A stretch of 64,000 nt of DNA from a virus. Under the pieces are notes generated by a model. That model did no database searches, was not told the origin of the DNA, and was given only the letters and a program-made list of their open reading frames with translations. Location: the IMG/VR virus record IMGVR_UViG_3300014059_000004. One strand, written 5' to 3'. The position numbers were made by a program, and so were the translations under genes. Positions 23,748-54,986 of the stretch are shown here, one piece after another (within the stretch, counting starts at the first letter, position 1; each line of letters begins with the position of its first letter).

Positions 23748-23945
23748 ATGAAATTCCAAGTTGGTGATCTTGTCACGATTGCAAACAACAACGGATACGT
23801 TTCAACTAAAGACTCTGGTCTCATCATCTCTGTAAGAGCTGCGAACCAGAATAAGTCTTACCAGTACGAGAGCGTGTACTACGTGTGGCTGAACAAGGGC
23901 TCTATGATGGGTCCCTTGTTCAGCCACGAACTTCTAGGCTTCTAG
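23748..23945 (+). CDS. array-family paralog (plus strand outlier)
   Basis: N-term MKFQVGDLV. Confidence 0.5.
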   Translation: MKFQVGDLVTIANNNGYVSTKDSGLIISVRAANQNKSYQYESVYYVWLNKGSMMGPLFSHELLGF

Positions 23946-24173
23946 AAGCTTTATCTGCGATTCATGAGCAGTTGTTAGTCGACCAAGGCTTGGAAAGTAT
24001 ACAACGATCGTCCCGTACAGAGTGTAGTCTGGGATTTCGTTGCTTCCAACATCTACTTGAACGACGATGCCAATGTCTTTTGGGCTCAACACGTAGTACT
24101 TGTTAGGGTCAGAGCAATTGAGGGCCGTGACAACCCTTGCTCTCTGCGTCTCTACCAAGTCGCCCGGTTTCAT
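23934..24173 (-). CDS. array paralog
   Basis: N-term MKPGDLV. Confidence 0.55.
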   Translation of the reverse strand: MKPGDLVETQRARVVTALNCSDPNKYYVLSPKDIGIVVQVDVGSNEIPDYTLYGTIVVYFPSLGRLTTAHESQIKLLEA

Positions 24174-24176
24174 CTT

Positions 24177-24431
24177 TTACAACGATAGCCAATTGCTGTC
24201 CCAGCTAACTGTGTCGCACCCGTAATCGTACAAACGACCGTTGATCAGCAACGACACGTGAGTTCTTTGACCCTTGCTTTGAGATCTTACGATCACAGCA
24301 ATCATGCCGCTCTTGATTGCTATGGATGATGGTCTTCTGATGAGCGGCGCTGCCCATCCCAAGATCAGCTTCCTTGCCATCACTAGATCACCAGGCTTAG
24401 GCGTATTCAAATTTTCTCCAAGATTTTCCAC
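24177..24431 (-). CDS. array paralog
   Basis: PKPGDLV near N-term. Confidence 0.5.
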   Translation of the reverse strand: MENLGENLNTPKPGDLVMARKLILGWAAPLIRRPSSIAIKSGMIAVIVRSQSKGQRTHVSLLINGRLYDYGCDTVSWDSNWLSL

Positions 24432-24633
24432 GCTCAGATTCCCAAAAGAGAGCAGTCTGCAAGGTGCCGTCAGAGCATAGTACTACAATCTCGTGCGCTC
24501 GTACATTTTCACCGAACGAAGTCACGATCTTGACGATCGATCCAAACCGCGGTTTGATTGCACCCTTTCCAAACCATGCGACTAGATCACCCACATCCAG
24601 AGTTTTTGGTGTTGATGTGAATCTTTGAAGCAT
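24397..24633 (-). CDS. array paralog (start trimmed to internal ATG)
   Basis: MLQRFTSTPKTLDVGDLV. Confidence 0.45.
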   Translation of the reverse strand: MLQRFTSTPKTLDVGDLVAWFGKGAIKPRFGSIVKIVTSFGENVRAHEIVVLCSDGTLQTALFWESERGKSWRKFEYA

Positions 24634-24814
24634 GTCCACACTCGGGGCAGCTGAACGTGATCCAAAAACCGCCCCTGACAACGCGCTCTGGGTGCTTTGA
24701 GCCACATTCACCGCAGCAACCTTCAGCTTCAGCGCGTAGCTTGCGTATCCAAGGATGTTCATCTGATGATGTTGCTTCGACGAGCACCGTGAACATTCTA
24801 GCGATATTCAGCAT
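24587..24814 (-). CDS. possible zinc-ribbon small protein
   Basis: CCGECGSKH...(17)...SCPECGHASK; overlaps untrimmed neighbour, uncertain. Confidence 0.3.
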   Translation of the reverse strand: MLNIARMFTVLVEATSSDEHPWIRKLRAEAEGCCGECGSKHPERVVRGGFWITFSCPECGHASKIHINTKNSGCG

Positions 24815-24826
24815 TGCCCGACAAGG

Positions 24827-25027
24827 TTAAGTATCGCTGAGAATCTCAACTTTGTCAATGATCCACCAAGTAGCAACTTCGAACGTTTGGTGCTCATAGA
24901 ACAAACCAGTTTTATCGTCAGTGTGCCACAGGATTGTCACAAGAGCACCATCTGGTATGACGAAACCTTTGAACGTGCGATACAGCTGGTTGAGCTTGAC
25001 AAGATCGCCAGGCCGTATCGTGAGCAT
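24827..25027 (-). CDS. array paralog
   Basis: N-term MLTIRPGDLV. Confidence 0.55.
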   Translation of the reverse strand: MLTIRPGDLVKLNQLYRTFKGFVIPDGALVTILWHTDDKTGLFYEHQTFEVATWWIIDKVEILSDT

Positions 25028-25074
25028 AGATCATTGTACAATGAACTTGGTACGAAGTACAGTATCATTTACAG

Positions 25075-41854: not shown

Positions 41855-41866
41855 AGTAGGCCTACT

Positions 41867-44856: not shown

Positions 44857-45101
44857 TTGACAACCTTGAACTGGTGCGGGAAAGAGACCCAGATCTCACC
44901 GCGGAACAATACGACAGCGAGGTTACAATCATCCCACGTGACCGTGCCAAGAAAAGTGCCAGCTGCTCGGCATTCTTCATCTGTGGGCTTGAAATCTTTA
45001 TACACGAGCCGCGCGCCGTCCTCATGCAGTGAAATGGTCGTCACGTACGTACTTCCATGCGATTGTAGAATCACCATGTCACCCGGAAGTGTCACTGCCA
45101 T
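44853..45101 (-). CDS. array paralog
   Basis: MAVTLPGDMV. Confidence 0.5.
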   Translation of the reverse strand: MAVTLPGDMVILQSHGSTYVTTISLHEDGARLVYKDFKPTDEECRAAGTFLGTVTWDDCNLAVVLFRGEIWVSFPHQFKVVK

Positions 45102-45141
45102 CTAACAATTGTAACCCATTTTGTGGCACCAGTGCACAGCG

Positions 45142-45360
45142 TTACAAAGGCCTTAGTCTTGATGGATGAACTTCTACCAAGACACCAGACGGAAGCAAGA
45201 TAAGAACCAAGCTTCCGTTGCCACGACCGCTAATACCAACGTACACGAAAGGTCCAGAACCGGGAACTTCGAAGCCGTGAAGACCATATTCATAGGGTGC
45301 TTTCAACGTGAGGACGTACAGATCTCTCGAGTCGCTGCAGACCAGATCGCCGATCTTCAT
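45142..45360 (-). CDS. array paralog (trimmed)
   Basis: MKIGDLVC. Confidence 0.5.
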   Translation of the reverse strand: MKIGDLVCSDSRDLYVLTLKAPYEYGLHGFEVPGSGPFVYVGISGRGNGSLVLILLPSGVLVEVHPSRLRPL

Positions 45361-45518
45361 AGCAGCTCTAGTGCACCAACGTAGTATCTGTTGACGCGTC
45401 CGCTGAACAGCAAGACCCAAGCCCAAGTCGCTCCTGACTTGAGCTGACCAAACCCTATGATGATGCACGCTTCTGGCAAATAATTTTTTCGTGGGACAAC
45501 CAAGTCACCAACTTTCAT
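45357..45518 (-). CDS. array paralog (53 aa, manual)
   Basis: MKVGDLVVPRKN...LLFSGRVNRYYVGALELL. Confidence 0.45.
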   Translation of the reverse strand: MKVGDLVVPRKNYLPEACIIIGFGQLKSGATWAWVLLFSGRVNRYYVGALELL

Positions 45519-45530
45519 AGCGACACCTCA

Positions 45531-45758
45531 TCAGATGAAAAACACGTTGTCGACGTACGTAACAACCAGCTCACCAGTTTCGCGCATCACCATGATGCGA
45601 TTGCGATGAAACTGGGTAGGCTCGATAATGAAGACACCGACGCACAGCAACACTTCATCGTCAACCAAGCACTGACCCAGGTAATAACCAGATATCGGAT
45701 TGCAGGTTGATATGAACTTGCTCTTCGAGCAGACAAGATCTCCAGGTTCGATATTCAT
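45531..45758 (-). CDS. array paralog
   Basis: MNIEPGDLV. Confidence 0.55.
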   Translation of the reverse strand: MNIEPGDLVCSKSKFISTCNPISGYYLGQCLVDDEVLLCVGVFIIEPTQFHRNRIMVMRETGELVVTYVDNVFFI

Positions 45759-46015
45759 TCAACCCACTGCAGCTCTTTAACGGAGCCGGCGTACGTAGAG
45801 ATAACACGACCGTCTGGTAGCAAGATCCACACGTACTGCAAACCGTCAACTTTGAAGCTGTTTACGTATACAGCAACGCAGAAGTTTACGGCGAAATCAT
45901 CTGCAATCTTTGATTGCCTCACTTTGAGGAAGTGATCTGCCTCGTGCGGATTCATTGAAATTCTCTTGAACGTGGGAACGACCAGAACACCAGCTTTCAT
46001 AGTGGACTCCTCCAA
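45755..46015 (-). CDS. array paralog
   Basis: MKAGVLVV. Confidence 0.5.
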   Translation of the reverse strand: MEESTMKAGVLVVPTFKRISMNPHEADHFLKVRQSKIADDFAVNFCVAVYVNSFKVDGLQYVWILLPDGRVISTYAGSVKELQWVE

Positions 46016-46185
46016 AGCGGTTGTACGTCGCTTTCGTAGAACTTTTTGATGTTCCCGTTCGACCCCATAAGAATTGCGACCTTTGCCACTTCGTACATCA
46101 CACCGGCCAAGTAAACATAGATCTCACGGTCCCATGCAAAAGAAACGGTGACAAGATCACCTGTGACAAAATTATGTTTCATCAA
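45997..46185 (-). CDS. array paralog
   Basis: NFVTGDLV. Confidence 0.55.
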   Translation of the reverse strand: MMKHNFVTGDLVTVSFAWDREIYVYLAGVMYEVAKVAILMGSNGNIKKFYESDVQPLWRSPL

Positions 46186-46402
46186 TCTTCAGATCGCTCC
46201 TTGCTACCGTTGCTACTTGCCCATGCGATGTCAGAACCAAGTACGCCCTGATGTTGCCAACGAACATCTGCGCAAGGTAGATGAAGACCACATGCCCACG
46301 CTCTGGATCCCATGCCCGGACTGAATTCCATTTGCCGTGACGATCTAGCTCAATGTACGTTGTGTACACTGCGCTCAGCAAGTCACCAGCACGAATCGTC
46401 AT
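46172..46402 (-). CDS. array paralog
   Basis: MTIRAGDLL. Confidence 0.55.
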   Translation of the reverse strand: MTIRAGDLLSAVYTTYIELDRHGKWNSVRAWDPERGHVVFIYLAQMFVGNIRAYLVLTSHGQVATVARSDLKIDET

Positions 46403-46572
46403 TGTATCTCCAGAAGCTCATCAACCCAACGCCAGCGAACATCGCCGGTCGGGCGGATGATAAGAGCAACGTGCTCGGTGTCAGACGCAGTGCAGATGAA
46501 CACGTTGATGCCCGGAACTTCATCATGGATCCAATAGACCAGATCGCCTGACTTAAACTGTTCACGCTTCAT
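46399..46572 (-). CDS. array paralog (57 aa, manual)
   Basis: MKREQFKSGDLV...RPTGDVRWRWVDELLEIQ. Confidence 0.45.
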   Translation of the reverse strand: MKREQFKSGDLVYWIHDEVPGINVFICTASDTEHVALIIRPTGDVRWRWVDELLEIQ

Positions 46573-46732
46573 GCAGCAGTTCCAGCTCGTTCAACCAATA
46601 CTCTACAGCACAACCTTCTACATTTATAACCAGAGCAAAGTGGTAAAAGTTCCCAGCTGGGACATACGAACTCACGTATATAAGCGGTTCGTTGCGATTA
46701 AATGCCCAACACACCAGATCACCAGCTTTCAT
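46562..46732 (-). CDS. array paralog (56 aa, manual)
   Basis: MKAGDLVCWAFN...YWLNELELL. Confidence 0.45.
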   Translation of the reverse strand: MKAGDLVCWAFNRNEPLIYVSSYVPAGNFYHFALVINVEGCAVEYWLNELELLHEA

Positions 46733-46772
46733 GCTAGCACAAAATCTCCGTCAGTGATGAGCAGATCTCCAG

Positions 46773-46955
46773 TCACCATGCTCTCTTCATGTCATCGTAA
46801 TCAAACCGTGAAACAGTGCCATCAGGACACATGAACCAACCGTGAGTCCAATTGTTAGAGCTGCACAGGAAGATGAACATGCTCTTGTGATTCCACTTGG
46901 AAATTTTCGGTATGAAGTACGGACAGTATGCCGCATCGCCAGAATAAAATTTCAT
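46773..46955 (-). CDS. array paralog
   Basis: MKFYSGDAA. Confidence 0.5.
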   Translation of the reverse strand: MKFYSGDAAYCPYFIPKISKWNHKSMFIFLCSSNNWTHGWFMCPDGTVSRFDYDDMKRAW

Positions 46956-47167
46956 GTTACGAGCCTCAATTCCGCAGTGTGAGCCGCTGCAAACGTTCCA
47001 TCGGGAAGAAGGACGATGGTGAGGTAATCAAGCGGCCCTGGGCAAGTCCCGCAGCAGATGAAGGGACCAATACCTTCGAAGTGACGAACGTCACCGTTAT
47101 TTGGATCAGCTGCATTCCACACGACAATGTCTTTGAAGCGAGAGGTTAGAAGGTCACCAGTTCTCAT
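46952..47167 (-). CDS. array paralog
   Basis: MRTGDLL. Confidence 0.55.
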   Translation of the reverse strand: MRTGDLLTSRFKDIVVWNAADPNNGDVRHFEGIGPFICCGTCPGPLDYLTIVLLPDGTFAAAHTAELRLVT

Positions 47168-47370
47168 TTGATCACCTTAAGCTCTGAAGCTCTCGTGTAC
47201 ATGATCTTGCCGTTTGGAAGAAGGATGATTGTGAGTTGACCGCCGATGTCACCAAGGCAGATGAACGGTCCACGGCCAGTGAGCATGCGGCCGCCCTGAC
47301 ACAGCTTATCATCCATCTCAAAGACGAACGTGTCCTTCCACGCGCCACAGACAAGATCACCGGTCTTCAT
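47164..47370 (-). CDS. array paralog
   Basis: MKTGDLVC. Confidence 0.55.
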   Translation of the reverse strand: MKTGDLVCGAWKDTFVFEMDDKLCQGGRMLTGRGPFICLGDIGGQLTIILLPNGKIMYTRASELKVIK

Positions 47371-47576
47371 CGTGACACCGCTTCGAATTCATCTGTTATG
47401 ATGTGAACGACACGGCCATCAGGTGACAATGCCAGCCCACGTGCGGGTGACAGCAGCAAGAAGTAACCGAACGAGCGCCTGTACCACTGGCTACCGTGGG
47501 TTGACATGATCGTGGTCGTGAAAGTATCTCCCATCGGTAGAAGAAGATCACCGTGGATAAATGGAAAGCGGCTCAT
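47367..47576 (-). CDS. array paralog
   Basis: FIHGDLLL. Confidence 0.5.
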   Translation of the reverse strand: MSRFPFIHGDLLLPMGDTFTTTIMSTHGSQWYRRSFGYFLLLSPARGLALSPDGRVVHIITDEFEAVSR

Positions 47577-47788
47577 CGGGAGATAACCTTCACAAAATCA
47601 TCAATCTTGATTATCACGATCCGTTCTCCAAGAAGCCCATACACGTACTCTTGATCTCGTACCGAGTAACCAATCACGAGGAGAGGGTCAACTATCTCCG
47701 TACCCCACGTGCCCCTACGAACATCGTAAACAGGGGCGTACTTCCCTTCGTAATTCCCGGCCAGAAGATCACCGATCACTGGAGACAA
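47573..47788 (-). CDS. array paralog
   Basis: MSPVIGDLL. Confidence 0.55.
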   Translation of the reverse strand: MSPVIGDLLAGNYEGKYAPVYDVRRGTWGTEIVDPLLVIGYSVRDQEYVYGLLGERIVIIKIDDFVKVISR

Positions 47789-48020
47789 CCTTCAAATCAG
47801 AAGCTAGAACACGGGAAACGCGGCCAGAAGGAAACATCACCCAGCACAGCGAGACACCCCGGACGTTGCAGACACCAAGGTAGATGAGCGGAAAATCACC
47901 AGCTACATCGACCAGGCGACCCGAGAACTTGCCAGGCTGCACTTCAGCATACTCAACCACGTAGGTGGCGATGAAGCCTTCTTTGCGCCGGATTCTAAGA
48001 ACGTCTCCAAGCGTCATCAT
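47769..48020 (-). CDS. array paralog
   Basis: MMTLGDVL. Confidence 0.5.
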   Translation of the reverse strand: MMTLGDVLRIRRKEGFIATYVVEYAEVQPGKFSGRLVDVAGDFPLIYLGVCNVRGVSLCWVMFPSGRVSRVLASDLKVVSSDR

Positions 48021-48220
48021 AGGGGTGACACCTCTCCAGAAGAAACCACGAGGATCTTATCACCAGCAAGGACGTACACGTAATGTTCAGCCCAAATTTC
48101 ATGGTAACCCAAGAAGACCATGGGACCCAAGCGCTCCACGAGCCACTTCTCATGCGATGGGCCAGCATACTGGAACGTTGGATACTTCGACCTAAGAAGG
48201 TCACCGCAGTTAAAAGCCAT
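48017..48220 (-). CDS. array paralog (trimmed)
   Basis: MAFNCGDLL. Confidence 0.5.
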   Translation of the reverse strand: MAFNCGDLLRSKYPTFQYAGPSHEKWLVERLGPMVFLGYHEIWAEHYVYVLAGDKILVVSSGEVSPL

Positions 48221-48447
48221 CAGAGTGGTCGCCATCGGTGGGGGTAAGTGATCAAAATGCGGGACCGGTGAAGAACAATGGTGCAATCGACATCATCGAT
48301 CTTTAGGGTGCCAACGGCGACCCCGGCCGCAGCATCGTCTTCACCAGTGGGGTAAAACATGCGGCAGCGAAATGGTGCGGTGCTGACAACTGTCGGGAAG
48401 ACATCGTCGAAAGAATCCAACCGAACCAAATCACCGGGGGAGAACAT
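48220..48447 (-). CDS. array paralog
   Basis: MFSPGDLV. Confidence 0.55.
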   Translation of the reverse strand: MFSPGDLVRLDSFDDVFPTVVSTAPFRCRMFYPTGEDDAAAGVAVGTLKIDDVDCTIVLHRSRILITYPHRWRPL

Positions 48448-48450
48448 GCC

Positions 48451-48588
48451 TCACCTCGTTCTTCCAAAGGTAGATGAAGCACCCGTGATTGTGAGCTGAT
48501 CGTACATGCGGGAGACAAGGATGAAGATGTACCCCGCTGGGTAATCCAACACGGGGCGGGAGAGAACCAGCAAGTCTCCAGCTCTCAT
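48451..48588 (-). CDS. array paralog (45 aa, manual, possibly truncated)
   Basis: MRAGDLLVLSRP. Confidence 0.35.
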   Translation of the reverse strand: MRAGDLLVLSRPVLDYPAGYIFILVSRMYDQLTITGASSTFGRTR

Positions 48589-48592
48589 CTGA

Positions 48593-48898
48593 TCACCACG
48601 AAGTCACTATCATAGATGGCAACGAGCTCTCCGCAATAGAGAACGTAGCTGTAGTTCGGATTCCATGGATGCCGTGAGACGTAGGTGACCATGAAGTTGC
48701 GAGGCATATGCACACGTCCGGTTCGCCACGCAGGTTACAGATGAACGTGTACAGATGATTTTCACAGCGTCCATCCCCAGCACCCCACTTCGCGAAGTAG
48801 CTATTTTCATCGAATCCTGCGAGCTTTGAGAAACGCAACCCTTTTGCGCTCTGCGTTGTCATCAGAAGATCACCTGGAGACCACGTGTAAGTGATCAA
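48593..48898 (-). CDS. array paralog
   Basis: TWSPGDLL. Confidence 0.5.
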   Translation of the reverse strand: MITYTWSPGDLLMTTQSAKGLRFSKLAGFDENSYFAKWGAGDGRCENHLYTFICNLRGEPDVCICLATSWSPTSHGIHGIRTTATFSIAESSLPSMIVTSW

Positions 48899-49131
48899 AC
48901 TTTCACCATGTTGATGACTCTCGTCATTATGACTTCGTTCGCCGAGCTCAAGTACGTGCCGATGCTTCCGAAGTCGCCGTTGACGTTGACTGGGCCGACG
49001 TACATGTACATCGCGTTCGAACGAAGCAACTTATCGCCGAACAGGATGTCTTTTCCATCGCGGGTCATGACTATGACGCTGCCGTACGTGCAACCGCTTT
49101 CAGATTCTAGCTTGAACAACTCACCAATCAT
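48895..49131 (-). CDS. array paralog (trimmed)
   Basis: MIGELF; ATGA coupling. Confidence 0.45.
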   Translation of the reverse strand: MIGELFKLESESGCTYGSVIVMTRDGKDILFGDKLLRSNAMYMYVGPVNVNGDFGSIGTYLSSANEVIMTRVINMVKV

Positions 49132-49391
49132 AGGCTCACCAACGTTCCGTACTTGCAGTAGATAATCTTCCCATCGGGTGTCAAGTAAGCAGCACGCACG
49201 GTGCAGTTGGTCGCCCGTGCTTCTCCAACGTATACGTATGGGCCCTGGGTGACAAGCTGCTCGCCCAAAAGACACCATACGTACTCAACTTGAGTCCTCA
49301 ACGAGTCTGTTACTTTGGTGTAACGGTGAAGCGCCCAAGTCCAGTGACCCAAGATGCTAGGATCAGCAATGAACAGATCGCCTGTTTTCAT
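49128..49391 (-). CDS. array paralog (trimmed)
   Basis: MKTGDLF. Confidence 0.5.
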   Translation of the reverse strand: MKTGDLFIADPSILGHWTWALHRYTKVTDSLRTQVEYVWCLLGEQLVTQGPYVYVGEARATNCTVRAAYLTPDGKIIYCKYGTLVSL

Positions 49392-49603
49392 AGGTGTTCG
49401 AACGCGTGAGACGCTGCATACCTGATCTGACCATCGCGGCGCAAGTACATCGCAAGATTTTGACCCCACTTCGTTATGAAGATGAAGACTTCGCCCGTAT
49501 TAACAAAATCTGAAGTGAAGAAATGACCGTTGATGTCGACGTACGACATCGTCTTTGACCACTTGCACTTCACCAAGTCACCAGTCTTGAACTCTGTGTT
49601 CAT
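49388..49603 (-). CDS. array paralog
   Basis: EFKTGDLV. Confidence 0.55.
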   Translation of the reverse strand: MNTEFKTGDLVKCKWSKTMSYVDINGHFFTSDFVNTGEVFIFITKWGQNLAMYLRRDGQIRYAASHAFEHL

Positions 49604-49830
49604 AGTGGTTCGAAGTTTCCTTTGAGTGATATTACAATGGAACTGGTAACGTTGACAAAGTAGTAGCTATAGCTCTTGTCATAGTCACCCAAGTACATTA
49701 GAAGTGTGGCTCTATCAACCATTTGTCCCATCGTACCAAGACCATGACTTGTTTTCACGAACGTGATAGCAAAGTCAAATGGCAACGATCGTCTCAAGCA
49801 AACGAGCTGTCCGACAGTCTGCGCCTTCAT
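49600..49830 (-). CDS. array paralog
   Basis: MKAQTVGQLV. Confidence 0.5.
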   Translation of the reverse strand: MKAQTVGQLVCLRRSLPFDFAITFVKTSHGLGTMGQMVDRATLLMYLGDYDKSYSYYFVNVTSSIVISLKGNFEPL

Positions 49831-49873
49831 GGTTCAATCTTTACGAAGGCATATTCGCGACACGCACGAACCT

Positions 49874-50062
49874 TCAAATCAACGGTTGACAGAAAGTAAG
49901 AAAGACGCCCATTTTAACGTGTGGAACTTTGCTCAAGTATACGTGCAGTTGAAACGCAGACGCAATTGTACCGTTCCAGACCCAAAAGCCCCTATCGTCG
50001 TATTGATACACGTAGACCCCATGCGAACCCTTGGCTACCACAAGATCGCCGCTCTTCATCAC
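49874..50062 (-). CDS. array paralog
   Basis: MMKSGDLVV. Confidence 0.55.
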   Translation of the reverse strand: MMKSGDLVVAKGSHGVYVYQYDDRGFWVWNGTIASAFQLHVYLSKVPHVKMGVFLTFCQPLI

Positions 50063-50277
50063 CGCACCGGTGTTACGTCAAAGATATCGCAAACAATTAT
50101 TTTCCCCGTCGAGCAGTGCAAGAAGTACGTCAACGTGTCGCTGTTCACAACACCCACGTAGATCAGAAGATCTCTTACTGGAATTCGTTCTCCATCGTTA
50201 AACCAGCCCTCATCTTCAACCCAAATTTGAGCGCGAACATGCTCACTGCGTGCTCTAGCAAGATCGCCCGCGCGCAT
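50059..50277 (-). CDS. array paralog
   Basis: MRAGDLA. Confidence 0.5.
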   Translation of the reverse strand: MRAGDLARARSEHVRAQIWVEDEGWFNDGERIPVRDLLIYVGVVNSDTLTYFLHCSTGKIIVCDIFDVTPVR

Positions 50278-50513
50278 AATATCACCTGCATCCCGTCAAC
50301 TTCGACAAAGACTATTTGGCACCGCGGGATGCAGAAGAAGCTACCGATCACTGAATCGTCTGCTTTTCCCAAGTACATGCACTGTTCATCGGAATACAAC
50401 ATGTATGACTTCAACCCTTTCGATGCGTCGTGCATCCACCACTTGCCCCCTTCTGCATAGAACGTTCTGGGTCCATAGCGTGATCGTGTTCTCACCAAAT
50501 CACCGGTGCACAT
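50175..50513 (-). CDS. array paralog (trimmed; 3' third overlaps neighbour in another frame)
   Basis: MCTGDLV. Confidence 0.4.
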   Translation of the reverse strand: MCTGDLVRTRSRYGPRTFYAEGGKWWMHDASKGLKSYMLYSDEQCMYLGKADDSVIGSFFCIPRCQIVFVEVDGMQVILCARAILLEHAVSMFALKFGLKMRAGLTMENEFQ

Positions 50514-50520
50514 GCCTTGA

Positions 50521-50649
50521 TCAGACGACATGAAACTCATGAACAAGACCGCGGCCGCTGTGAAAACGTGACGCCTTTTGCGCTGGATCATCACCAATGA
50601 AGTACAAAAAGTTGCTGTACGTTGACGTTAGCAGATCGCCGACTTTCAT
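50521..50649 (-). CDS. array paralog, short (42 aa, manual)
   Basis: MKVGDLLTSTYSNFLYFIGDD. Confidence 0.35.
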   Translation of the reverse strand: MKVGDLLTSTYSNFLYFIGDDPAQKASRFHSGRGLVHEFHVV

Positions 50650-50867
50650 AGTGTTTCAAGCTCGTGCATCGCAGCCCAGCCAACCTCACCCCATGGGAAC
50701 ATGAATATAAAACCTGGCGTTCCACCAACGTCTGTAAACGTACCCAAGTACAATAGGAAGAAGTATCGACCGCTCAACATCCGTGCGCCGGTCAAAATAC
50801 CATCGTTGAATCGACAGTACATGATGTCGTCGTACTTCGACCTAAGCAGATCACCAGGGCTAAACAT
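50646..50867 (-). CDS. array paralog (trimmed)
   Basis: MFSPGDLL. Confidence 0.5.
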   Translation of the reverse strand: MFSPGDLLRSKYDDIMYCRFNDGILTGARMLSGRYFFLLYLGTFTDVGGTPGFIFMFPWGEVGWAAMHELETL

Positions 50868-51082
50868 GCTCTCAAGCTCTCCATCGGAATCCGGACAACA
50901 GAACCATCCGGCTTCATGATCCACCCGCAGGGGACAACAGTTCCCTTCGAGGTGCCCACGAGCTCGCGGGACAACCAGATGCAAGGTCCAGATGGCCACT
51001 TCCCAGAAGCTCTAGGGCGGTTGTAGACATCTACTTCAACCCAGTACATCCCCACAATGCGGCACAAGTCACCGGTCAGCAT
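50792..51082 (-). CDS. array paralog (trimmed; tail overlaps next member)
   Basis: MLTGDLC. Confidence 0.45.
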   Translation of the reverse strand: MLTGDLCRIVGMYWVEVDVYNRPRASGKWPSGPCIWLSRELVGTSKGTVVPCGWIMKPDGSVVRIPMESLRACLALVICLGRSTTTSCTVDSTMVF

Positions 51083-51450
51083 CTCTCTCCCCTTATGGTA
51101 AACTACAGCACCGCAGAAGTGCACTGCTGGGGGAAGTGCTTCTGACTTGACCCCTTCATCCCCGAATGGCTCTTTGGAGGGCTTCCGCCGCCCGAGTCAC
51201 AGATGCCCTCAGGTGGCAATTCCTCACGGGAGTACTGCTGTGCAGTTTCCTTGGGAACCCCGGCGAAATTATCGTCTATGAGGATGTGGGTCATCGCGGT
51301 GCAGCTCTGTGAGGTTGTCGGTTGTCACGTAGCAGAGAAGACAGATGGGAAGACACTTTCCTCACAGCGACGCACGAGGGGGACTTTTCTCGTGGGAATT
51401 CCTCACAGCGATCACGATTTCAGGGTAGCTGGGAATGGCACTAACGGGTT

Positions 51451-52578: not shown

Positions 52579-52905
52579 TCAGTTAACTCGAACGTACTCA
52601 TTGATGTCACCTTTATTCCACTCCCTAGACACGTGCTTCCCGGAGAGCCTACCGTACGTAGAAGAATAGATGATAAACGTCACAGTGCCACGTTGAGAAC
52701 CAGAACCGTCCCAGGGGCGTGCAAAGTTGCAGATCACAAGACCCATCGTATGATACTGCACCACCCCGGGTGCAGCGGTCGAGACCGGCCCAGAGAAGAA
52801 AAGAAGATCGCCCGGGACCAGGTCTTTTGCAACGTCGCGCCAATTCATCAGCCCGGCCTTTTTCAGCCGAGCTCGATCAGTTTCGTTGATAATGGTGGCA
52901 AACAT
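52579..52905 (-). CDS. array paralog
   Basis: DLVPGDLLF. Confidence 0.5.
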   Translation of the reverse strand: MFATIINETDRARLKKAGLMNWRDVAKDLVPGDLLFFSGPVSTAAPGVVQYHTMGLVICNFARPWDGSGSQRGTVTFIIYSSTYGRLSGKHVSREWNKGDINEYVRVN

Positions 52906-52915
52906 GTGCTCAACC

Positions 52916-53857
52916 TCAAAAAGGTACTCCCAGTAACAAATTTAACAGGAGCGAGAAATCTGAATCATTCCTGTCAGCGTTCAAGTTCACAGTGAACGGT
53001 GTCATCCCGTCGGGGGATATGCTGATCATTGACATTGTGACGATATCGTGACCCGCGCCGTGCATCTCATTCCGGACGGTTGCAACGACGAGCAAGTACT
53101 CGTTGAGCATCGAGCCCGGGACAGAAAAGAGCAAGTCGCCAGGCTCCAGCGTTCCGAACGTCCACCTTTTGCGGGCCACTGGTAACTTCACCTTCCGCGG
53201 TCGACCACGCTTCCGCTTAGCAGAGACCTCTGCGCGCTTCTCCTTGGCAGCACGCTCTGCAGCGATGACATCTTTCGGGCGGTTCTTGGAACCAGGCGGG
53301 CGACCGCGCTTCCCCTTGCGGACAGGCTTGGGCTCACCCTCCGGCGGCAGCGGTCGAACTCGCGGTCGGCCACGCTTCTTCTTGCCGATGGTCTCCTTGG
53401 CGATGGCCAGGCAGTACACGTCACCCTTCTTCGGGCCGGTGATGTAGTTGCCCAGGGCATGCTGCTTCAGGTCTTCGTTCCAGAGACCCACCACACCAGT
53501 CTCGTCATCGATGCTCTCCACCGTGTACGTCAGGGTATCGAGCCACGGACGCGCTGCCAGGACAGAAGCATAGCGCTCGATGACGATCTTGTCACCGATG
53601 TTAAAGAGCGGGAGGGGAGCACCGTCCACCACCACAAGCGCAGGCTTCAGGTGAGAGATGTCTGGCTTCCGGGCATTGCGGTCCGCCCACGCAGCGTCCG
53701 GATCGCGGCCAGCAAGACCCCAGTCTTCATCAGCGTCCGCAGGGAGAGCCGGCGGGGGAAGAGCAGATGCCGAAGCAACGAGTGCATTGACCTGGTCGGT
53801 GAGAGGGTTCGTCTCGTCCATAGGTTTATTGTACCACGTTTCTTCGAGGGTTTGCAC
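52916..53857 (-). CDS. two-domain array-family protein with three AT-hook motifs in the linker
   Basis: LFNIGDKIVI... and TLEPGDLLF... domains; KRGRPRV, GKRGRPPGSKNRPK, RKRGRPRKV (GRP cores). Confidence 0.55.
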   Translation of the reverse strand: MQTLEETWYNKPMDETNPLTDQVNALVASASALPPPALPADADEDWGLAGRDPDAAWADRNARKPDISHLKPALVVVDGAPLPLFNIGDKIVIERYASVLAARPWLDTLTYTVESIDDETGVVGLWNEDLKQHALGNYITGPKKGDVYCLAIAKETIGKKKRGRPRVRPLPPEGEPKPVRKGKRGRPPGSKNRPKDVIAAERAAKEKRAEVSAKRKRGRPRKVKLPVARKRWTFGTLEPGDLLFSVPGSMLNEYLLVVATVRNEMHGAGHDIVTMSMISISPDGMTPFTVNLNADRNDSDFSLLLNLLLGVPF

Positions 53858-53929
53858 AGAATATTCGAATTAAATTGAGAGTGGTTTTCCACCCTCGAAT
53901 TGTGTGAATTCTCTGTGAGGCTCACGGGC

Positions 53930-54154
53930 CTAAAAGGCGGTCAATGAATCGTACGTGTCATCATGGGTCGGGTAGCTCTTCCAGACCTTAAAAGTTTCCA
54001 AGCTCATGAACCCAATGTCGAGCAATTCACCATCGTCGTGCTTCATCGTCTTCCAGATCACCATGACCATCGCCTTGCGACCGCCGCCGGGTCTCCAGCC
54101 TTCCTTGTCCCACAGGAGCAATGTCCCCGGTTGAAGATCTTTTACGTACACCAT
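53930..54154 (-). CDS. array paralog (QPGTLL variant)
   Basis: MVYVKDLQPGTLLLW. Confidence 0.5.
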   Translation of the reverse strand: MVYVKDLQPGTLLLWDKEGWRPGGGRKAMVMVIWKTMKHDDGELLDIGFMSLETFKVWKSYPTHDDTYDSLTAF

Positions 54155-54375
54155 AATAGCATCGTTGCGTAGCAGTACTGCTCGTCGACTTCACTGACAG
54201 TATCCCAGAATCTCTGCTCTTCCGCGCAGAAGAATCTGACCCTCCTCCAATAAACGTTGCTCTCGTGAGCCCAGATGCCGATCACCATGACTGTCACTGG
54301 CGTCGTCAACCTTGGAACGATTGTGCGATCCCAGCGCAATAGAGTTCCTGGTTGAATGTCTTGAACTTTGACCAT
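54142..54375 (-). CDS. array paralog (QPGTLL variant)
   Basis: MVKVQDIQPGTLLRW. Confidence 0.5.
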   Translation of the reverse strand: MVKVQDIQPGTLLRWDRTIVPRLTTPVTVMVIGIWAHESNVYWRRVRFFCAEEQRFWDTVSEVDEQYCYATMLLWCT

Positions 54376-54489
54376 GTGAAGAGTTCTTTTAGCGCTACGC
54401 AGGCACGTTTAACAGTATTCAACAATTGTATTACGTTCGAACATGAGCTGGGTTGTGTATAAGAGAACGAATACGTTGAATAAGAAAAT

Positions 54490-54711
54490 TTATATTGGGC
54501 TCACGATCACGTGCCCTGCGTTCTCGCAGGGATGATGTTCACCCCAAGGCTTTGTGCACCATTTATATTCCGGGTCGACATTGTTGAACGTTTCAACTTT
54601 GCCATCATGGATTGTGACCATCGTGCTACCCTTTGTGCTGACGAACACGTGGAGCGTTCGAACCCAAGTGACGATCGATCCGGGAAGTATGTTCTTTGTC
54701 TTTATTGTCAT
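54490..54711 (-). CDS. array paralog variant
   Basis: NILPGSIVTW. Confidence 0.45.
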   Translation of the reverse strand: MTIKTKNILPGSIVTWVRTLHVFVSTKGSTMVTIHDGKVETFNNVDPEYKWCTKPWGEHHPCENAGHVIVSPI

Positions 54712-54986
54712 TGTGCGAGGATGAAGGGGGTGACTGAGCTGCCGAGCTCACGCTTGAACTTCTCAATGTCACCGCACACGGGCCACAGGTGGTTCTCTTG
54801 GACCTCGATCCAGTTGAGCCGGCTCATGGGGGAGTGCCAGGAATGCTCAAGCATCGTGACTTTGTACCAGAAGTCGTCCTTCAACGTGGGATTGGGAACT
54901 TTACCGATGCACAAGACAACGTACAGCGAAGAAGCCCACTGGATGAGGGCACCAGTTTTGACATCAGTTGTGGGGATGAATAGCAT
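54708..54986 (-). CDS. array paralog variant
   Basis: DVKTGALIQW. Confidence 0.45.
   Translation of the reverse strand: MLFIPTTDVKTGALIQWASSLYVVLCIGKVPNPTLKDDFWYKVTMLEHSWHSPMSRLNWIEVQENHLWPVCGDIEKFKRELGSSVTPFILAQ

What the first reader, a model, noticed from the sequence alone, without database searches (positions are those of the whole stretch)
23748..54986. Tandem array of about 94 divergent small paralogs occupying one third of the window
From 23.7 to 55 kb the minus strand is almost entirely tiled by head-to-tail ORFs of 40-120 aa that belong to one family. The N-terminus is M-x(0-6)-G-D-L-V (variants G-T-L-L, G-D-L-C, P-G-D-V). A mid-protein aromatic/hydrophobic strand follows, and the conserved C-terminal block is (I/V)LLP(D/N/S)G-x-(I/V)...(E/D)(L/F)-x-x-(L/I/V). 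Units are translationally coupled (ATGA/GTGA start-stop overlaps at most junctions). No two units are similar at nucleotide level, so the array is old and under diversifying rather than homogenising pressure. Several members shorter than 60 aa sit in gaps of the ORF track (for example 43576-43743, 44125-44304, 46399-46572). The predicted all-beta pattern resembles small KOW/Tudor/SH3-like barrels such as the DUF2158-type GDxV...E.L fold. I do not recognise it as a named phage family. Possible roles are a library of binders (anti-defence or host-takeover factors), packaged internal proteins, or cargo for the co-located vault protein. Four plus-strand relatives sit at 3751-4683.
Basis: partly seen in the sequence, partly recalled or inferred. 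Interest (0 to 1): 0.92.

Follow-up and report, generated by a model that had tools for sequence, protein, structure and literature searches.

The report
Huge-phage array of SH3-like paralogs
An uncultivated huge phage devotes about 17 kb to roughly 75 back-to-back genes for tiny, very divergent SH3-like barrel proteins of a previously undescribed family, whose gene content is reshuffled even between close relatives; this pattern suggests, but does not prove, a library of binders aimed at the host.

Summary
A new protein family tiles the minus strand from 34,095 to 51,124: about 75 head-to-tail genes, median 76 aa, coding density 0.98, and 48 of 75 junctions with 4-nt or 1-nt overlaps. A family HMM recovers 53 of the 75 core genes at E≤1e-3 (54 window ORFs in all) with no reversed-sequence decoys, 64 at E≤0.1, and most of the rest share the motifs by eye.

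These are the flanks at 23.7–25, 29.4–30.5 and 51.9–55 kb; the four plus-strand ORFs at 3751–4683 fail the same test. Large unrelated genes, including a major-vault-protein homolog, interrupt the region.

Relatives differ by cassette-like gain, loss and transposition of units. Most likely this is a fast-turnover repertoire of small binders for host takeover or anti-defence. The function is untested.

The parts
34095..51124 (-). Core tandem array: 75 tiled small genes of one SH3-like family, including divergent members and remnants
   Evidence: Tiling, junction statistics and coding density 0.98; family HMM
34095..34403 (-). member, 102 aa
   Evidence: HMM E=2e-09
34400..34633 (-). borderline member, 77 aa
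   Evidence: HMM E=3e-02; VGDLI motif
34630..34848 (-). member, 72 aa
   Evidence: HMM E=6e-08
34845..35078 (-). member, 77 aa
   Evidence: HMM E=1e-13
35075..35305 (-). member, 76 aa
   Evidence: HMM E=1e-07
35302..35529 (-). borderline member, 75 aa
   Evidence: HMM E=1e-02; KPGDLV motif
35526..35753 (-). member, 75 aa
   Evidence: HMM E=4e-07
35803..36027 (-). tiled ORF, 74 aa, below threshold
   Evidence: HMM E=7; YPGDVF motif only
36027..36260 (-). probable divergent member, 77 aa
   Evidence: HMM E=0.2; SPGDLV motif
36328..36558 (-). member, 76 aa
   Evidence: HMM E=6e-08
36558..36806 (-). probable divergent member, 82 aa
   Evidence: HMM E=2; IGSLL...LLLLGV motifs
36803..37045 (-). member, 80 aa
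   Evidence: HMM E=4e-05
37027..37239 (-). member, 70 aa
   Evidence: HMM E=5e-07
37239..37478 (-). member, 79 aa
   Evidence: HMM E=5e-10
37475..37705 (-). borderline member, 76 aa
   Evidence: HMM E=2e-03
37707..37913 (-). borderline member, 68 aa
   Evidence: HMM E=3e-02; VGDLV motif
37910..38176 (-). tiled ORF, 88 aa, below threshold
   Evidence: No HMM hit; KPGAIV motif only
38173..38427 (-). member, 84 aa
   Evidence: HMM E=5e-13
38424..38675 (-). member, 83 aa
   Evidence: HMM E=4e-17
38675..38899 (-). member, 74 aa
   Evidence: HMM E=7e-08
38896..39171 (-). borderline member, 91 aa
   Evidence: HMM E=3e-02; VGDLC motif
39168..39401 (-). member, 77 aa
   Evidence: HMM E=3e-16
39398..39628 (-). 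member, 76 aa
   Evidence: HMM E=2e-14
39621..39863 (-). member, 80 aa
   Evidence: HMM E=7e-14
39856..40101 (-). member, 81 aa
   Evidence: HMM E=8e-12
40074..40346 (-). member, 90 aa
   Evidence: HMM E=1e-10
40343..40570 (-). member, 75 aa
   Evidence: HMM E=6e-12
40546..40809 (-). member, 87 aa
   Evidence: HMM E=7e-12
40835..41050 (-). member, 71 aa
   Evidence: HMM E=9e-06
41047..41295 (-). member, 82 aa
   Evidence: HMM E=3e-07
41288..41527 (-). borderline member, 79 aa
   Evidence: HMM E=3e-02
41588..41854 (-). probable divergent member, 88 aa
   Evidence: HMM E=0.2; KPGTLL motif
41867..42130 (-). member, 87 aa; identical to P0010, which lies on a 313,755-bp JGI contig
   Evidence: HMM E=6e-12
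42124..42399 (-). probable divergent member, 91 aa
   Evidence: HMM E=3; FLLCIG...LINLYAHEVAL motifs
42396..42641 (-). member, 81 aa
   Evidence: HMM E=3e-15
42638..42886 (-). probable divergent member, 82 aa
   Evidence: HMM E=0.7; LGTLL...VYAYMG...REFEVI motifs
42883..43131 (-). member, 82 aa
   Evidence: HMM E=2e-12
43128..43358 (-). member, 76 aa
   Evidence: HMM E=4e-15
43355..43591 (-). different subtype inside the array, 78 aa: 'LPGDVV...GIVI...ILWSDAP', like the L002 array type
   Evidence: HMM E=2; aligns with the L002 'LWS' group (alignment A3)
43576..43743 (-). borderline member, 55 aa
   Evidence: HMM E=6e-02; VGDLL motif
43740..43919 (-). member, 59 aa
   Evidence: HMM E=4e-11
43916..44128 (-). 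member, 70 aa
   Evidence: HMM E=2e-17
44125..44304 (-). member, 59 aa
   Evidence: HMM E=2e-13
44301..44519 (-). member, 72 aa
   Evidence: HMM E=5e-14
44519..44689 (-). member, 56 aa
   Evidence: HMM E=7e-16
44689..44856 (-). member, 55 aa
   Evidence: HMM E=1e-10
44853..45101 (-). probable divergent member, 82 aa
   Evidence: HMM E=0.2; LPGDMV motif; BLASTP-related to 48220-48447 at 35% identity
45142..45360 (-). member, 72 aa
   Evidence: HMM E=7e-16
45357..45518 (-). member, 53 aa
   Evidence: HMM E=2e-10
45531..45758 (-). member, 75 aa
   Evidence: HMM E=3e-13
45755..46000 (-). member, 81 aa
   Evidence: HMM E=1e-16
45997..46182 (-). member, 61 aa
   Evidence: HMM E=5e-08
46172..46402 (-). 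member, 76 aa
   Evidence: HMM E=3e-12
46399..46572 (-). member, 57 aa
   Evidence: HMM E=2e-11
46562..46732 (-). member, 56 aa
   Evidence: HMM E=2e-08
46773..46955 (-). member, 60 aa
   Evidence: HMM E=2e-10
46952..47167 (-). member, 71 aa
   Evidence: HMM E=5e-15
47164..47370 (-). member, 68 aa; the protein whose structure was modelled
47367..47576 (-). borderline member, 69 aa
   Evidence: HMM E=5e-03
47573..47779 (-). borderline member, 68 aa
   Evidence: HMM E=3e-02; IGDLL motif
47769..48017 (-). member, 82 aa
   Evidence: HMM E=3e-14
48017..48220 (-). member, 67 aa
   Evidence: HMM E=5e-11
48220..48447 (-). borderline member, 75 aa
   Evidence: HMM E=4e-03
48451..48588 (-). truncated unit, 45 aa (N-terminal half only); reads through into the next unit in L003
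   Evidence: HMM E=0.2; three-frame comparison with L003 and L006
48585..48898 (-). out-of-frame chimeric unit: the N-terminal half (48593-48898) and C-terminal half (48585-48713) lie in different frames
   Evidence: The C-terminal half is part of an intact gene in L003 and L006; HMM E=0.02 for each half
48895..49131 (-). probable divergent member, 78 aa
   Evidence: HMM E=0.2; MIGELF...MYMYVG motifs
49128..49391 (-). member, 87 aa
   Evidence: HMM E=5e-12
49388..49603 (-). member, 71 aa
   Evidence: HMM E=5e-19
49600..49830 (-). member, 76 aa
   Evidence: HMM E=3e-08
49874..50059 (-). member, 61 aa
   Evidence: HMM E=2e-10
50059..50277 (-). member, 72 aa
   Evidence: HMM E=9e-16
50175..50513 (-). 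member, 112 aa; its 3' part overlaps the next gene by 103 nt
   Evidence: HMM E=1e-10
50521..50649 (-). truncated remnant, 42 aa; the first 36 aa equal the N-terminus of the intact 69-aa P0057
   Evidence: HMM E=5e-07
50646..50867 (-). member, 73 aa; a single-gene block that lies next to the 43.7-kb position in L001/L010 and L003
   Evidence: HMM E=5e-18; synteny
50792..51082 (-). member, 96 aa; overlaps the next gene by 76 nt
   Evidence: HMM E=1e-08
23748..23945 (+). plus-strand small ORF with family-like motifs (MKFQVGDLV...GLIISV...ELLGF); borderline
   Evidence: HMM E=0.04-0.09; translation
23934..24173 (-). outlying member, 79 aa, the only flank ORF that passes the family HMM
   Evidence: HMM E=1.5e-05
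24177..25027 (-). three flank small ORFs with a PGDLV/VGDLV motif (24177-24431, 24397-24762, 24827-25027); family membership not shown
   Evidence: HMM E>1; their own HMM gives only E about 0.02 to two core genes; omega 0.07-0.32 against L001 shows they are coding
29381..30530 (-). four flank ORFs with GTLV/GDLV-like motifs (29381-29602, 29599-29787, 29762-30253, 30258-30530); membership not shown
   Evidence: No HMM link; conserved in L001
51897..52905 (-). four flank ORFs with a PGD(L/V/I)(V/I/L/F) motif, second subtype; membership not shown
   Evidence: hhalign against the core gives probability 16% over 11 columns only; cross-validation negative
53930..54986 (-). four flank ORFs with 'PG(T/S/A)L(L/I)...W' motifs, subtype 2; the model is possibly an SH3-like barrel but at low confidence
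3751..4683 (+). four plus-strand small ORFs with a PG(T/M)L(L/I) motif; not demonstrably related to the core or to the 54-kb group
   Evidence: Translations; cross-validation negative
31335..34079 (-). context: major-vault-protein homolog (914 aa), 15 nt downstream of the last array gene on the same strand
   Evidence: Pfam MVP_shoulder 2e-30, Vault, Vault_3, Band_7; PDB rat MVP E 2.5e-20; omega 0.006-0.03

Best explanation
The core (34.1-51.1 kb, minus strand) is a lineage-specific tandem expansion of a previously undescribed family of stand-alone, single-domain SH3-like beta-barrel proteins of 53-112 aa, in an uncultivated huge phage (a relative's contig is 313 kb).

Shown:
- The units are real translated genes, packed head to tail with start/stop overlaps, so they are probably made from long polycistronic mRNAs with translational coupling.
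- They arose by old local tandem duplications and then diverged to at most 42% identity.
- They keep a conserved barrel scaffold (GDLV strand, hhhhG strand, hhhLPxGxh hairpin, C-terminal (E/D)h strand). An insert between the first and central strands varies from about 2 to 48 residues.
- They evolve under relaxed purifying selection (omega about 0.3, and 0.59 in the inserts), 5-50 times weaker than the conserved neighbouring genes (omega 0.006-0.07).
- The repertoire turns over as whole-gene cassettes between close relatives, by gain, loss, transposition, truncation, fusion and out-of-frame chimeras, with breakpoints at gene starts.

Inferred: each unit is a small protein-binding module. Its variable hairpin and loops, the region that forms the ligand-binding face in classical SH3 domains, recognise a different host (or competing-element) target. 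Together they would form an accessory host-takeover or anti-defence repertoire that is continually reshuffled in an arms race with the host.
For: Family reality: HMM with decoy control.

Coding status: dN/dS 0.28-0.35; SD enrichment, 29 of 75 against 8.8+-2.8; an independent gene caller tiles the relatives' arrays in the same way.

Novel family: no Pfam, PHROG, NCBIfam or PADLOC hits. Only 68 hits among 1.84e9 representatives, about 56 of them small proteins of the same clade, and only 10-12 clusters by the word-indexed search.

Scaffold plus variable insert: alignment A1; match versus insert omega 0.30 versus 0.59, insert length 2-48 aa.

Heterogeneous surfaces: pI 4.1-10.1 and net charge -9 to +7, which argues against one common nucleic-acid ligand.

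Relaxed constraint relative to neighbours: MVP 0.006-0.03, GroEL 0.05, KaiC-like ATPase 0.07.

Cassette turnover: mosaic synteny with multi-kb indels and a single-gene transposition. 10-16 members per relative lack a counterpart of at least 60% identity in the window. 29 of 46 block ends lie within 30 nt of a gene start against 12.3 expected, P<0.001. Remnants and chimeras are present.

Local duplication origin: the best paralog lies a median of 3 genes away against 21 at random.

Non-structural genomic context: RNA ligase, exonuclease, UvdE, ADP-ribosylglycohydrolase, protease, AAA ATPases, GroEL.

General knowledge (not tested here): clusters of small, fast-evolving, non-essential genes in phages such as T4 and SPO1 encode host-takeover and anti-defence factors, and SH3-like barrels are common protein-, peptide- and nucleic-acid-binding modules.
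Against: - There is no direct evidence for any binding partner, for expression timing or for phenotype. The fold is generic and also serves RNA/DNA binding (KOW, Tudor, Sm) and cell-wall binding (SH3b).
- No residue-level positive selection was detected (omega<1 even in the inserts), although arms-race binders often show it. The two pairs with omega>1 (50646-50867 and 50175-50513 against L001) rest on small divergences and were not tested for significance.
- About 75 copies is far more than known anti-defence loci carry.
- Tight same-strand linkage to a very conserved MVP homolog, conserved in a 64%-identity relative whose arrays are of a different sequence type, could mean a function tied to the vault-like particle instead.
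- No sigma70-like promoters or early-gene signals could be identified.
Confidence: 0.45

Rival explanations
1. The paralogs are vault-associated. They would be adaptors or cargo for the particle formed by the adjacent phage major-vault-protein homolog, each unit docking a different client or being itself encapsulated.
For: - The last array gene ends 15 nt upstream of the MVP gene on the same strand.
- MVP plus flanking arrays of small PGDxV-motif ORFs is also seen in L002, whose MVP is only 64% identical and whose array sequences are a different type.
- Every contig that reaches the array end also carries MVP.
- MVP is under very strong constraint, omega 0.006-0.03.
Against: - Two other huge phages with MVP homologs (LR756500, LR756501) have no such arrays within 20 kb.
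- The preprint on gut-phage MVPs reports different neighbours in each genome (10.1101/2023.11.10.566534).
- No separate conserved targeting peptide exists: the conserved N- and C-terminal motifs are barrel strands in the model.
- Cargo for one shell would be expected to co-evolve with it, yet the repertoire differs by roughly 20-50% between phages whose MVPs are 99% identical.
Confidence: 0.12
2. The paralogs are nucleic-acid-binding regulators: KOW-, Tudor- or Sm-like barrels acting as gene-specific transcription or translation factors or as DNA- or RNA-coating proteins. This would parallel the function proposed for the ~35-copy Zn-ribbon expansion of Bacillus phage G.
For: - The flank model matches EF-P and eIF5A domain I.
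- There is a precedent for a jumbo-phage lineage-specific expansion interpreted as transcription factors or DNA binders (PMC7824862).
Against: - pI ranges from 4.1 to 10.1 with median 6.7. 17 of 56 members are acidic (pI<6) and only 14 basic (pI>8), so no common basic nucleic-acid-binding surface is apparent.
- No KOW, Sm/Hfq or Tudor sequence signature was found.
- Rapid presence/absence turnover is unusual for regulators of a phage's own genes.
Confidence: 0.12
3. The paralogs are structural or packaged proteins, such as internal head proteins, decoration proteins or ejected proteins, present in the virion.
For: Huge phages package many proteins of unknown function (general knowledge). Translational coupling would give balanced amounts of each product. 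Small beta-barrel decoration domains exist in phages.
Against: - The neighbourhood contains no recognisable structural genes.
- Structural components are normally conserved, whereas these show omega about 0.3 and gene-by-gene turnover.
- There are no PHROG structural hits.
Confidence: 0.07
4. The array is largely dispensable DNA: duplicates that filled spare capsid capacity after capsid enlargement and are decaying, with no specific function for most copies.
For: - Hua et al. proposed tandem duplication as a route to jumbo-genome expansion and reported arrays of more than 30 similar genes in phages G and 121Q (PMC5646251).
- Truncated, frameshifted and chimeric units are present.
- Constraint is relaxed.
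Against: - omega of about 0.3 over more than 8,000 codons is clear purifying selection, not neutrality.
- Reading frames, SD sites and 4-nt overlaps are maintained across about 70 genes despite divergence to 20% identity.
- The barrel scaffold is conserved well enough for a pLDDT-95 model.
- Only about 4 of 75 units are visibly degraded.
Confidence: 0.08
5. The units are single beta-propeller blades that assemble into hetero-oligomeric propellers.
For: The family profile hits designed 'Bagel' propellers (8prj, E 1.7e-14 summed over repeats) and BamB blades in the PDB. It also hits long repeat proteins in the metagenome library.
Against: - The hits cover only profile positions ~29-63, the hhG...hhhLPDGxh hairpin. 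Single-repeat E-values are about 0.004 or worse.
- AF2 gives a confident closed SH3-like barrel for the whole chain.
Confidence: 0.02

Closest known systems
Tandem paralog arrays of jumbo phages: Bacillus phage G (~35-copy Zn-ribbon expansion) and phage 121Q (array of more than 30 similar genes)
   Same: A lineage-specific tandem expansion of one small-protein family occupies a sizeable block of a very large phage genome. It is interpreted as duplication-driven genome growth (PMC5646251; PMC7824862).
   Different: - The fold and family differ: an all-beta SH3-like barrel, not a Zn ribbon, with no Pfam or PHROG match.
- There are about twice as many copies: 54 proven and about 70 probable.
- The copies are not 'very similar' but at most 42% identical.
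- Cassette-level turnover between close relatives is documented here.
Bacterial SH3 (SH3b) domains of NlpC/P60 peptidases and phage endolysins (e.g. PDB 3pvq, 4krt, 3m1u)
   Different: - Sequence identity is only 5-15%, and no SH3_x Pfam hit is found.
- SH3b domains are accessory cell-wall-binding modules fused to catalytic domains, whereas these are stand-alone cytoplasmic-looking proteins.
- No signal peptide or catalytic partner was noticed in the translations; this was not formally tested.
KOW domains of NusG/Spt5 and related 'translation protein SH3-like' barrels (EF-P/eIF5A domain I, ribosomal eL14)
   Different: - The KOW sequence motif is not detected by Pfam.
- These proteins are not attached to NGN or ribosomal contexts.
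- Charge is heterogeneous.
   Same: Small size and a GDxV-type first strand (from memory, not tested structurally).
   Different: None of 39 members matches the Pfam DUF2158 model, or any other Pfam model recurrently, even at E<=1.
Clusters of small early host-takeover or anti-defence genes in virulent phages such as T4 and SPO1 (general knowledge)
   Same: Dense runs of small overlapping genes without homologs, weak constraint, variable presence among relatives, and a non-structural location.
   Different: Those clusters are collections of unrelated small proteins. Here one fold is reiterated about 75 times. No expression-timing or phenotype data exist for this array.

Membership tests
SH3-like small beta-barrel fold class | A compact 5-7-stranded, highly bent antiparallel barrel of about 55-70 residues, superposable on SH3, KOW or Tudor domains | tested here: met
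KOW motif family (Pfam PF00467) | A significant match to the KOW sequence profile | tested here: not met
   No KOW hit for any of 39 members at E<=1
DUF2158 (YodC-like) | A significant match to the Pfam DUF2158 profile | tested here: not met
   No hit for 10 members or for all 39 members at E<=1
Bacterial SH3 (SH3b) cell-wall-binding domains | A sequence match to SH3_3, SH3_5 or related Pfam models | tested here: not met
   No such Pfam hit; the similarity is structural only, at 5-15% identity
Bacterial SH3 (SH3b) cell-wall-binding domains | Occurrence as an accessory module fused to a lytic or catalytic domain, or an exported protein | tested here: not met
   All units are stand-alone ORFs of 42-112 aa. 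No catalytic domain is fused.
Jumbo-phage tandem lineage-specific expansion (phage G / 121Q type) | More than 30 paralogs of one family in a contiguous tandem array in a phage genome larger than 200 kb | tested here: met
   54 members at E<=1e-3, 53 of them within 17 kb. A relative's contig is 313,755 bp. Phage-type GroEL and IMG/VR relatives.
Jumbo-phage tandem lineage-specific expansion (phage G / 121Q type) | The copies are 'very similar' (recent duplicates), and in phage G are Zn-ribbon proteins | tested here: not met
   Maximum paralog identity is 42% and there is no nucleotide similarity. The fold is an all-beta barrel, not a Zn ribbon.
   Only 23934-24173 passes (E 1.5e-5). hhalign probability is 16% and 2% over 11 columns. 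Cross-validated HMMs find no links at E<0.01.
Single family covering all ~94 ORFs (fold-level version) | Flank ORFs adopt the same SH3-like barrel | tested here: inconclusive
Beta-propeller blade repeats (PQQ/BamB-like, designed 'Bagel') | A four-stranded blade that assembles into a toroid, with a profile match over the whole unit | tested here: not met
Vault cargo or adaptor (INT-domain-like targeting to MVP) | Physical binding to the MVP repeat region, or encapsulation in the particle | not testable with these tools
   Only gene adjacency is available. No complex prediction or experiment was possible.
Known anti-phage defence or anti-defence protein families | A match to PADLOC models | tested here: not met
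   One chance-level hit (DndD, E 0.014) among 39 members. PADLOC covers defence systems, not anti-defence proteins, so this is a weak test.

The most novel reading that the evidence does not exclude
The phage builds a vault-like compartment from its highly conserved MVP homolog. The ~75 SH3-like paralogs would be a diversified, rapidly exchangeable set of adaptors or cargo that recruit different host or phage molecules into or onto that particle, making this a viral organelle with a combinatorial cargo-targeting library. The conserved co-location of MVP with arrays of small PGDxV-motif barrel-like proteins in a relative whose MVP is only 64% identical is compatible with this reading. Nothing tested here excludes it.
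Probability: 0.1. Interest if true: 0.9.

Novelty: new variant of a known kind. Interest (0 to 1): 0.62.

Why it matters
- It adds a previously undescribed protein family: there is no Pfam, PHROG or NCBIfam model, and the family is seen only in one uncultivated huge-phage clade among 1.84 billion sequence clusters.
- At 54 proven and about 70 probable copies, it exceeds the two tandem expansions I could find reported for phages (more than 30 copies in phages G and 121Q).
- It shows that huge-phage genome size can be inflated by an old, continuously reshuffled cassette array rather than by recent duplicates.
- If the units are target-specific binders, the array is a natural library of minimal scaffolds of 55-80 aa with a variable hairpin. 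That would be useful both for finding new host-takeover or anti-defence mechanisms and as an engineering scaffold.
- Its tight linkage to a phage major-vault-protein homolog gives a concrete, testable handle on what vault-like particles do in prokaryotic viruses, which remains an open question.

Tried and rejected
(1) Nucleotide searches of the array and of the MVP region against 50,697 GenBank phage records found no match.

(2) Pfam, PHROGs, NCBIfam and PADLOC scans of members gave only scattered chance-level hits.

(4) The look-up of P0010's 313-kb contig returned nothing on record, so the full genome could not be examined.

(5) The afdb50 fold library was unavailable. BFVD gave no match at E<=0.001.

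(6) I tried to unite the flank groups and the plus-strand four with the core:
- an iterated HMM seeded on them only re-found its seeds and their orthologs, which is circular;
- cross-validation was negative;
- hhalign was negative;
- the structure model was of low confidence.

(7) The search for related loci with the family alignment failed because no stretch is conserved enough. Single distant members P0073 and P0049 were not found in IMG/VR.

(8) The MVP-encoding huge phages LR756500 and LR756501 were scanned for arrays and none were found.

(9) Sigma70 promoter and terminator scans showed no enrichment. Rfam gave no hits.

(10) Literature searches for a described equivalent found only the phage G and 121Q arrays and the gut-phage MVP preprint. 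None mentions this family.

(11) Diversifying selection was rejected at the pooled level, with omega 0.28-0.35. The two pairs with omega>1 rest on small divergences and were not tested for significance.

Full report
WHAT THE WINDOW IS. The 64-kb window has about 50% GC and a strand switch near 23.9 kb. It encodes a phage-type GroEL (phrog_5725, E 1e-143), AAA ATPases, an RNA ligase, a 5'-3' exonuclease, UvdE, an ADP-ribosylglycohydrolase, a papain-like protease, a KaiC/DnaB-like ATPase and one tRNA-Leu. It has no nucleotide match in 50,697 GenBank phage records. One window protein is identical to a protein on a 313,755-bp JGI contig, and close relatives are IMG/VR viral contigs. It is therefore a non-structural region of an uncultivated huge phage.

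CHECKING THE OBSERVATION. The minus strand between about 23.9 and 55 kb is densely coding, but not only with small ORFs. Large ORFs lie at 25878-26849, 26770-28902, 30555-31319, 31335-34079 and 52916-53857.

I seeded an HMM with 16 clear units and iterated it against all six-frame ORFs plus reversed-sequence decoys.
- It recruited 42 window ORFs at E<=1e-3 with no decoys.
- With sequences from related contigs added, it recruited 54 at E<=1e-3, 57 at E<=1e-2 and 69 at E<=0.1, with 0, 1 and 7 decoys among 1,427.
- All hits at E<=1e-2 are on the minus strand. All but one (23934-24173) lie within 34,095-51,124.

A dynamic-programming tiling, hand-corrected at 15 places, gives 75 genes in that 17-kb core.
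- Gene length is 42-112 aa (median 76) and coding density is 0.98.
- There are 63 ATG starts.
- 39 junctions overlap by 4 nt and 9 by 1 nt.
- 53, 56 and 64 of the 75 pass the HMM at 1e-3, 1e-2 and 0.1. Most of the remaining 11 show the motifs by eye.

No nucleotide repeat underlies the array. The only DNA repeats are ~30-nt patches encoding M-K-x-G-D-L, and TRF finds nothing. Only 29 of 2,775 paralog pairs are detectable by BLASTP, and the best pair is 42% identical. Even so, the best paralog of a gene lies a median of 3 genes away against 21 at random (P<0.001). That is the trace of old local tandem duplication.

THE FLANKS ARE NOT SHOWN TO BELONG. This concerns the groups at 24.2-25.0, 29.4-30.5, 51.9-52.9 and 53.9-55.0 kb, and the four plus-strand ORFs at 3751-4683. 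They share a short PG(D/T)L(V/L) first strand.
- HMMs built from each group find no other group or the core at E<0.01.
- An apparent success was circular, because it only re-found its own seeds and their orthologs.
- Profile-profile comparison aligns only 11 columns, with probability 16% and 2%.

THESE ARE REAL GENES. I compared the window with three related contigs: L001/L010 from IMG/VR, and L003 and L006 from Logan assemblies.
- Ortholog pairs give pooled dN/dS of 0.28, 0.30 and 0.35 over 3,400, 3,550 and 1,230 codons.
- SD-like tetramers precede 29 of 75 genes against 8.8+-2.8 at random positions.
- An independent gene caller tiles the relatives' arrays in the same way.
- The arrays recur in at least nine sequencing runs and two IMG/VR contigs, so they are not an assembly artefact.

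WHAT THE PROTEIN IS. No Pfam, PHROG, NCBIfam or PADLOC model matches, either for ten members or for all 39 aligned members scanned singly at permissive thresholds. AlphaFold2 on the 39-sequence alignment gives a seven-strand all-beta model with mean pLDDT 95.2.

- Spt5/NusG KOW, PWWP, Tudor, NdhS and classical SH3 domains follow.
- Sequence identity is 3-25% throughout.

A PDB sequence-profile search hit designed 'Bagel' propellers and BamB blades, but only over profile positions ~29-63 and mainly by summation over repeats. Given the confident barrel model, I read this as a shared beta-hairpin motif, not homology. BFVD gave only weak matches (none at E<=0.001) to assorted small uncharacterised phage proteins, some annotated as SH3.

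The conserved columns are the barrel strands. The segment between the first strand and the central hhhhG strand varies from about 2 to 48 residues.

DISTRIBUTION. An exhaustive profile search of 1.84 billion cluster representatives found 68 proteins at E<=1e-3.
- Twelve are long repeat proteins that hit the hairpin motif.
- The other ~56 are 53-94 aa (one is 146 aa).
- 51 of the 56 map to window genes at 29-100% identity. Five have no counterpart in the window but carry the same motifs.

Two word-indexed searches of 5.8 billion sequences found only 10 and 12 clusters, all from metagenomes and none with a Pfam domain or a meaningful name. Every contig examined shows the same dense arrays.

EVOLUTIONARY DYNAMICS. 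Shared blocks between the window and its relatives are 84-99% identical at nucleotide level. They are interrupted by multi-kb insertions and deletions and by transposed blocks. For example, the single gene at 50646-50867 lies next to the 43.7-kb position in both L001/L010 and L003.
- L010, whose MVP is 99% identical, has 52 family members, 10 of them without a counterpart of at least 60% identity in the window.
- L003 has 58 members with 16 unmatched, and L006 has 25 with 12 unmatched.
- Block ends cluster at gene starts: 29 of 46 lie within 30 nt against 12.3 expected, P<0.001. BLAST HSP ends are approximate and some are shared between relatives.
- The window itself holds decay and recombination products: a 42-aa remnant identical to the first 36 aa of an intact 69-aa ortholog; an out-of-frame chimera at 48585-48898 whose C-terminal half is intact in L003 and L006; and a 45-aa truncation that reads through as a two-domain fusion in L003.

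Constraint is weak relative to the conserved neighbours:

| Gene(s) | dN/dS |
|---|---|
| MVP homolog | 0.006-0.03 |
| 286-aa protein | 0.007 |
| GroEL | 0.05 |
| 313-aa protein | 0.06 |
| KaiC-like ATPase | 0.07 |
| Small paralogs, pooled | about 0.3 |

(Values.) Within the paralogs, scaffold (match-state) codons give omega 0.30 and insert codons 0.59. What is seen is relaxed purifying selection plus fast cassette turnover. Member pI ranges from 4.1 to 10.1, with net charge from -9 to +7.

CONTEXT AND THE VAULT PROTEIN. The 914-aa ORF 15 nt downstream of the array is a genuine MVP homolog: Pfam MVP_shoulder 2e-30 with Vault repeats, and rat MVP E 2.5e-20 over the shoulder and cap-helix region.
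- Homologs at 45% identity occur in the 462-kb and 735-kb uncultured phage genomes LR756500 and LR756501, but no arrays lie within 20 kb of them.
- A preprint reports MVPs in two gut phages, with different neighbours in each (10.1101/2023.11.10.566534).
- In L002 (MVP 64% identical) the MVP gene is flanked by arrays of small ORFs of a different sequence type, 'PGDxV...G(I/V)xI...(V/I)LWS'. A single copy of that type sits inside the window's array at 43355-43591.
- The MVP-array linkage is thus conserved within this clade but is not general.

INTERPRETATION. Four things are established:
- This is a new family of stand-alone SH3-like barrels.
- It was expanded by old tandem duplication.
- It is translated from tightly coupled genes.
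- It is weakly constrained and exchanged as cassettes.

The most economical functional reading is an accessory repertoire of small binding modules, with a conserved scaffold and a variable hairpin, directed at diverse host or competitor targets (host takeover or anti-defence). That fits the non-structural location, the heterogeneous surface charge, the turnover pattern and the behaviour of small accessory genes in other virulent phages (general knowledge). This step is inference, and I give it about 0.45.

The rivals are an MVP-associated adaptor or cargo set (0.12), nucleic-acid-binding regulators as proposed for the phage G Zn-ribbon expansion (0.12), mostly dispensable duplicated filler (0.08), virion proteins (0.07) and propeller-blade oligomers (0.02).

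COMPARISON WITH THE KNOWN. Tandem arrays of more than 30 similar genes are reported for phages G and 121Q (PMC5646251). Phage G's ~35 copies are Zn ribbons (PMC7824862), and a 2026 review repeats the point (PMC13282480). The present array is the same kind of phenomenon, but with a different and undescribed protein family and fold. It has roughly twice the copy number, much deeper divergence, and documented cassette turnover. I therefore rate it a new variant of a known kind, of moderately high interest (0.62).

LIMITS.
- There are no expression, proteomic or interaction data.
- The full genome was not retrievable.
- One structure model represents the whole family.
- The gene starts of about 15 units were chosen by hand.
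- The dN/dS values are simple Nei-Gojobori pairwise estimates.

Noticed in passing
window 31335-34079 (-): A 914-aa major-vault-protein homolog: Pfam MVP_shoulder 2e-30, rat MVP E 2.5e-20. It is under very strong purifying selection (omega 0.006-0.03). Homologs at 45% identity occur in the 462-kb and 735-kb uncultured phage genomes LR756500 and LR756501.
   Followed up: partly
window 30555-31319 (-) and 26770-28902 (-): Two large proteins of unknown function (254 and 710 aa) lie next to the MVP gene, with no Pfam, PHROG or PDB match. They evolve fast (73% and 84% identity to L001, omega 0.27 and 0.23), unlike the adjacent 286-aa protein at 25878-26738 (99.7% identity, omega 0.007).
   Followed up: partly
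window 41561-41570, 45132-45141, 51360-51369, 51401-51410 (all -): The motif CGCTGTG(M)(R)(S) occurs 7 times in the window against 1.8 expected. Four copies lie on the minus strand inside the rare intergenic gaps of the array. In the 51.3-kb gap it forms an inverted repeat with CCTCACAG. It is a candidate phage promoter or RNA-processing element.
   Followed up: partly
L002 12837-16142 (+) and 21041-22700; window 43355-43591 (-): A relative whose MVP is only 64% identical carries arrays of a different small-ORF type, 'PGDxV...G(I/V)xI...(V/I)LWS..P', on both sides of its MVP gene. One copy of that type is embedded in the window's array.
   Followed up: partly
window 52916-53857 (-): A conserved 313-aa protein (98% identity to L006, omega 0.06) interrupts the small-ORF block. 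It contains an internal 'NIGDKIVIERY' strand resembling the family's first strand, so it may be a fused or extended barrel protein. It has no Pfam, PHROG or PDB match.
   Followed up: no
L003 ~1310-1650 (+); P0018 (146 aa): Two-unit fusions exist in relatives. In L003 the 45-aa truncated unit reads through into the next unit, and a 146-aa database protein has two family domains.
   Followed up: no
window 55062-55144 (-): ARAGORN calls a tRNA-Leu(TAA) immediately upstream of the minus-strand block, but Rfam reports no match at gathering threshold anywhere in the window. It may be an atypical tRNA.
   Followed up: no
window 31599-34127 (+): An 842-aa ORF runs antisense to the MVP gene, in the locally GC-richer stretch (55-57% GC). 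It is most likely a non-coding shadow ORF.
   Followed up: no
BFVD hits: Seven of the top 32 weak structural matches carry neighbouring UniProt accessions (A0A516M6B7, A0A516M733, A0A516M758, A0A516M760, A0A516M7N1, A0A516MB48, A0A516MBA9; 52-176 aa). This suggests another, unnamed virus with many small barrel proteins. Its identity could not be resolved.
   Followed up: no
window 12596-13402, 17411-18328, 20453-21385, 21731-23356 (+): The plus-strand block encodes a papain-family cysteine protease, an ADP-ribosylglycohydrolase, a UvdE UV-endonuclease and a phage GroEL. This is an unusual auxiliary gene set for a phage.
   Followed up: no
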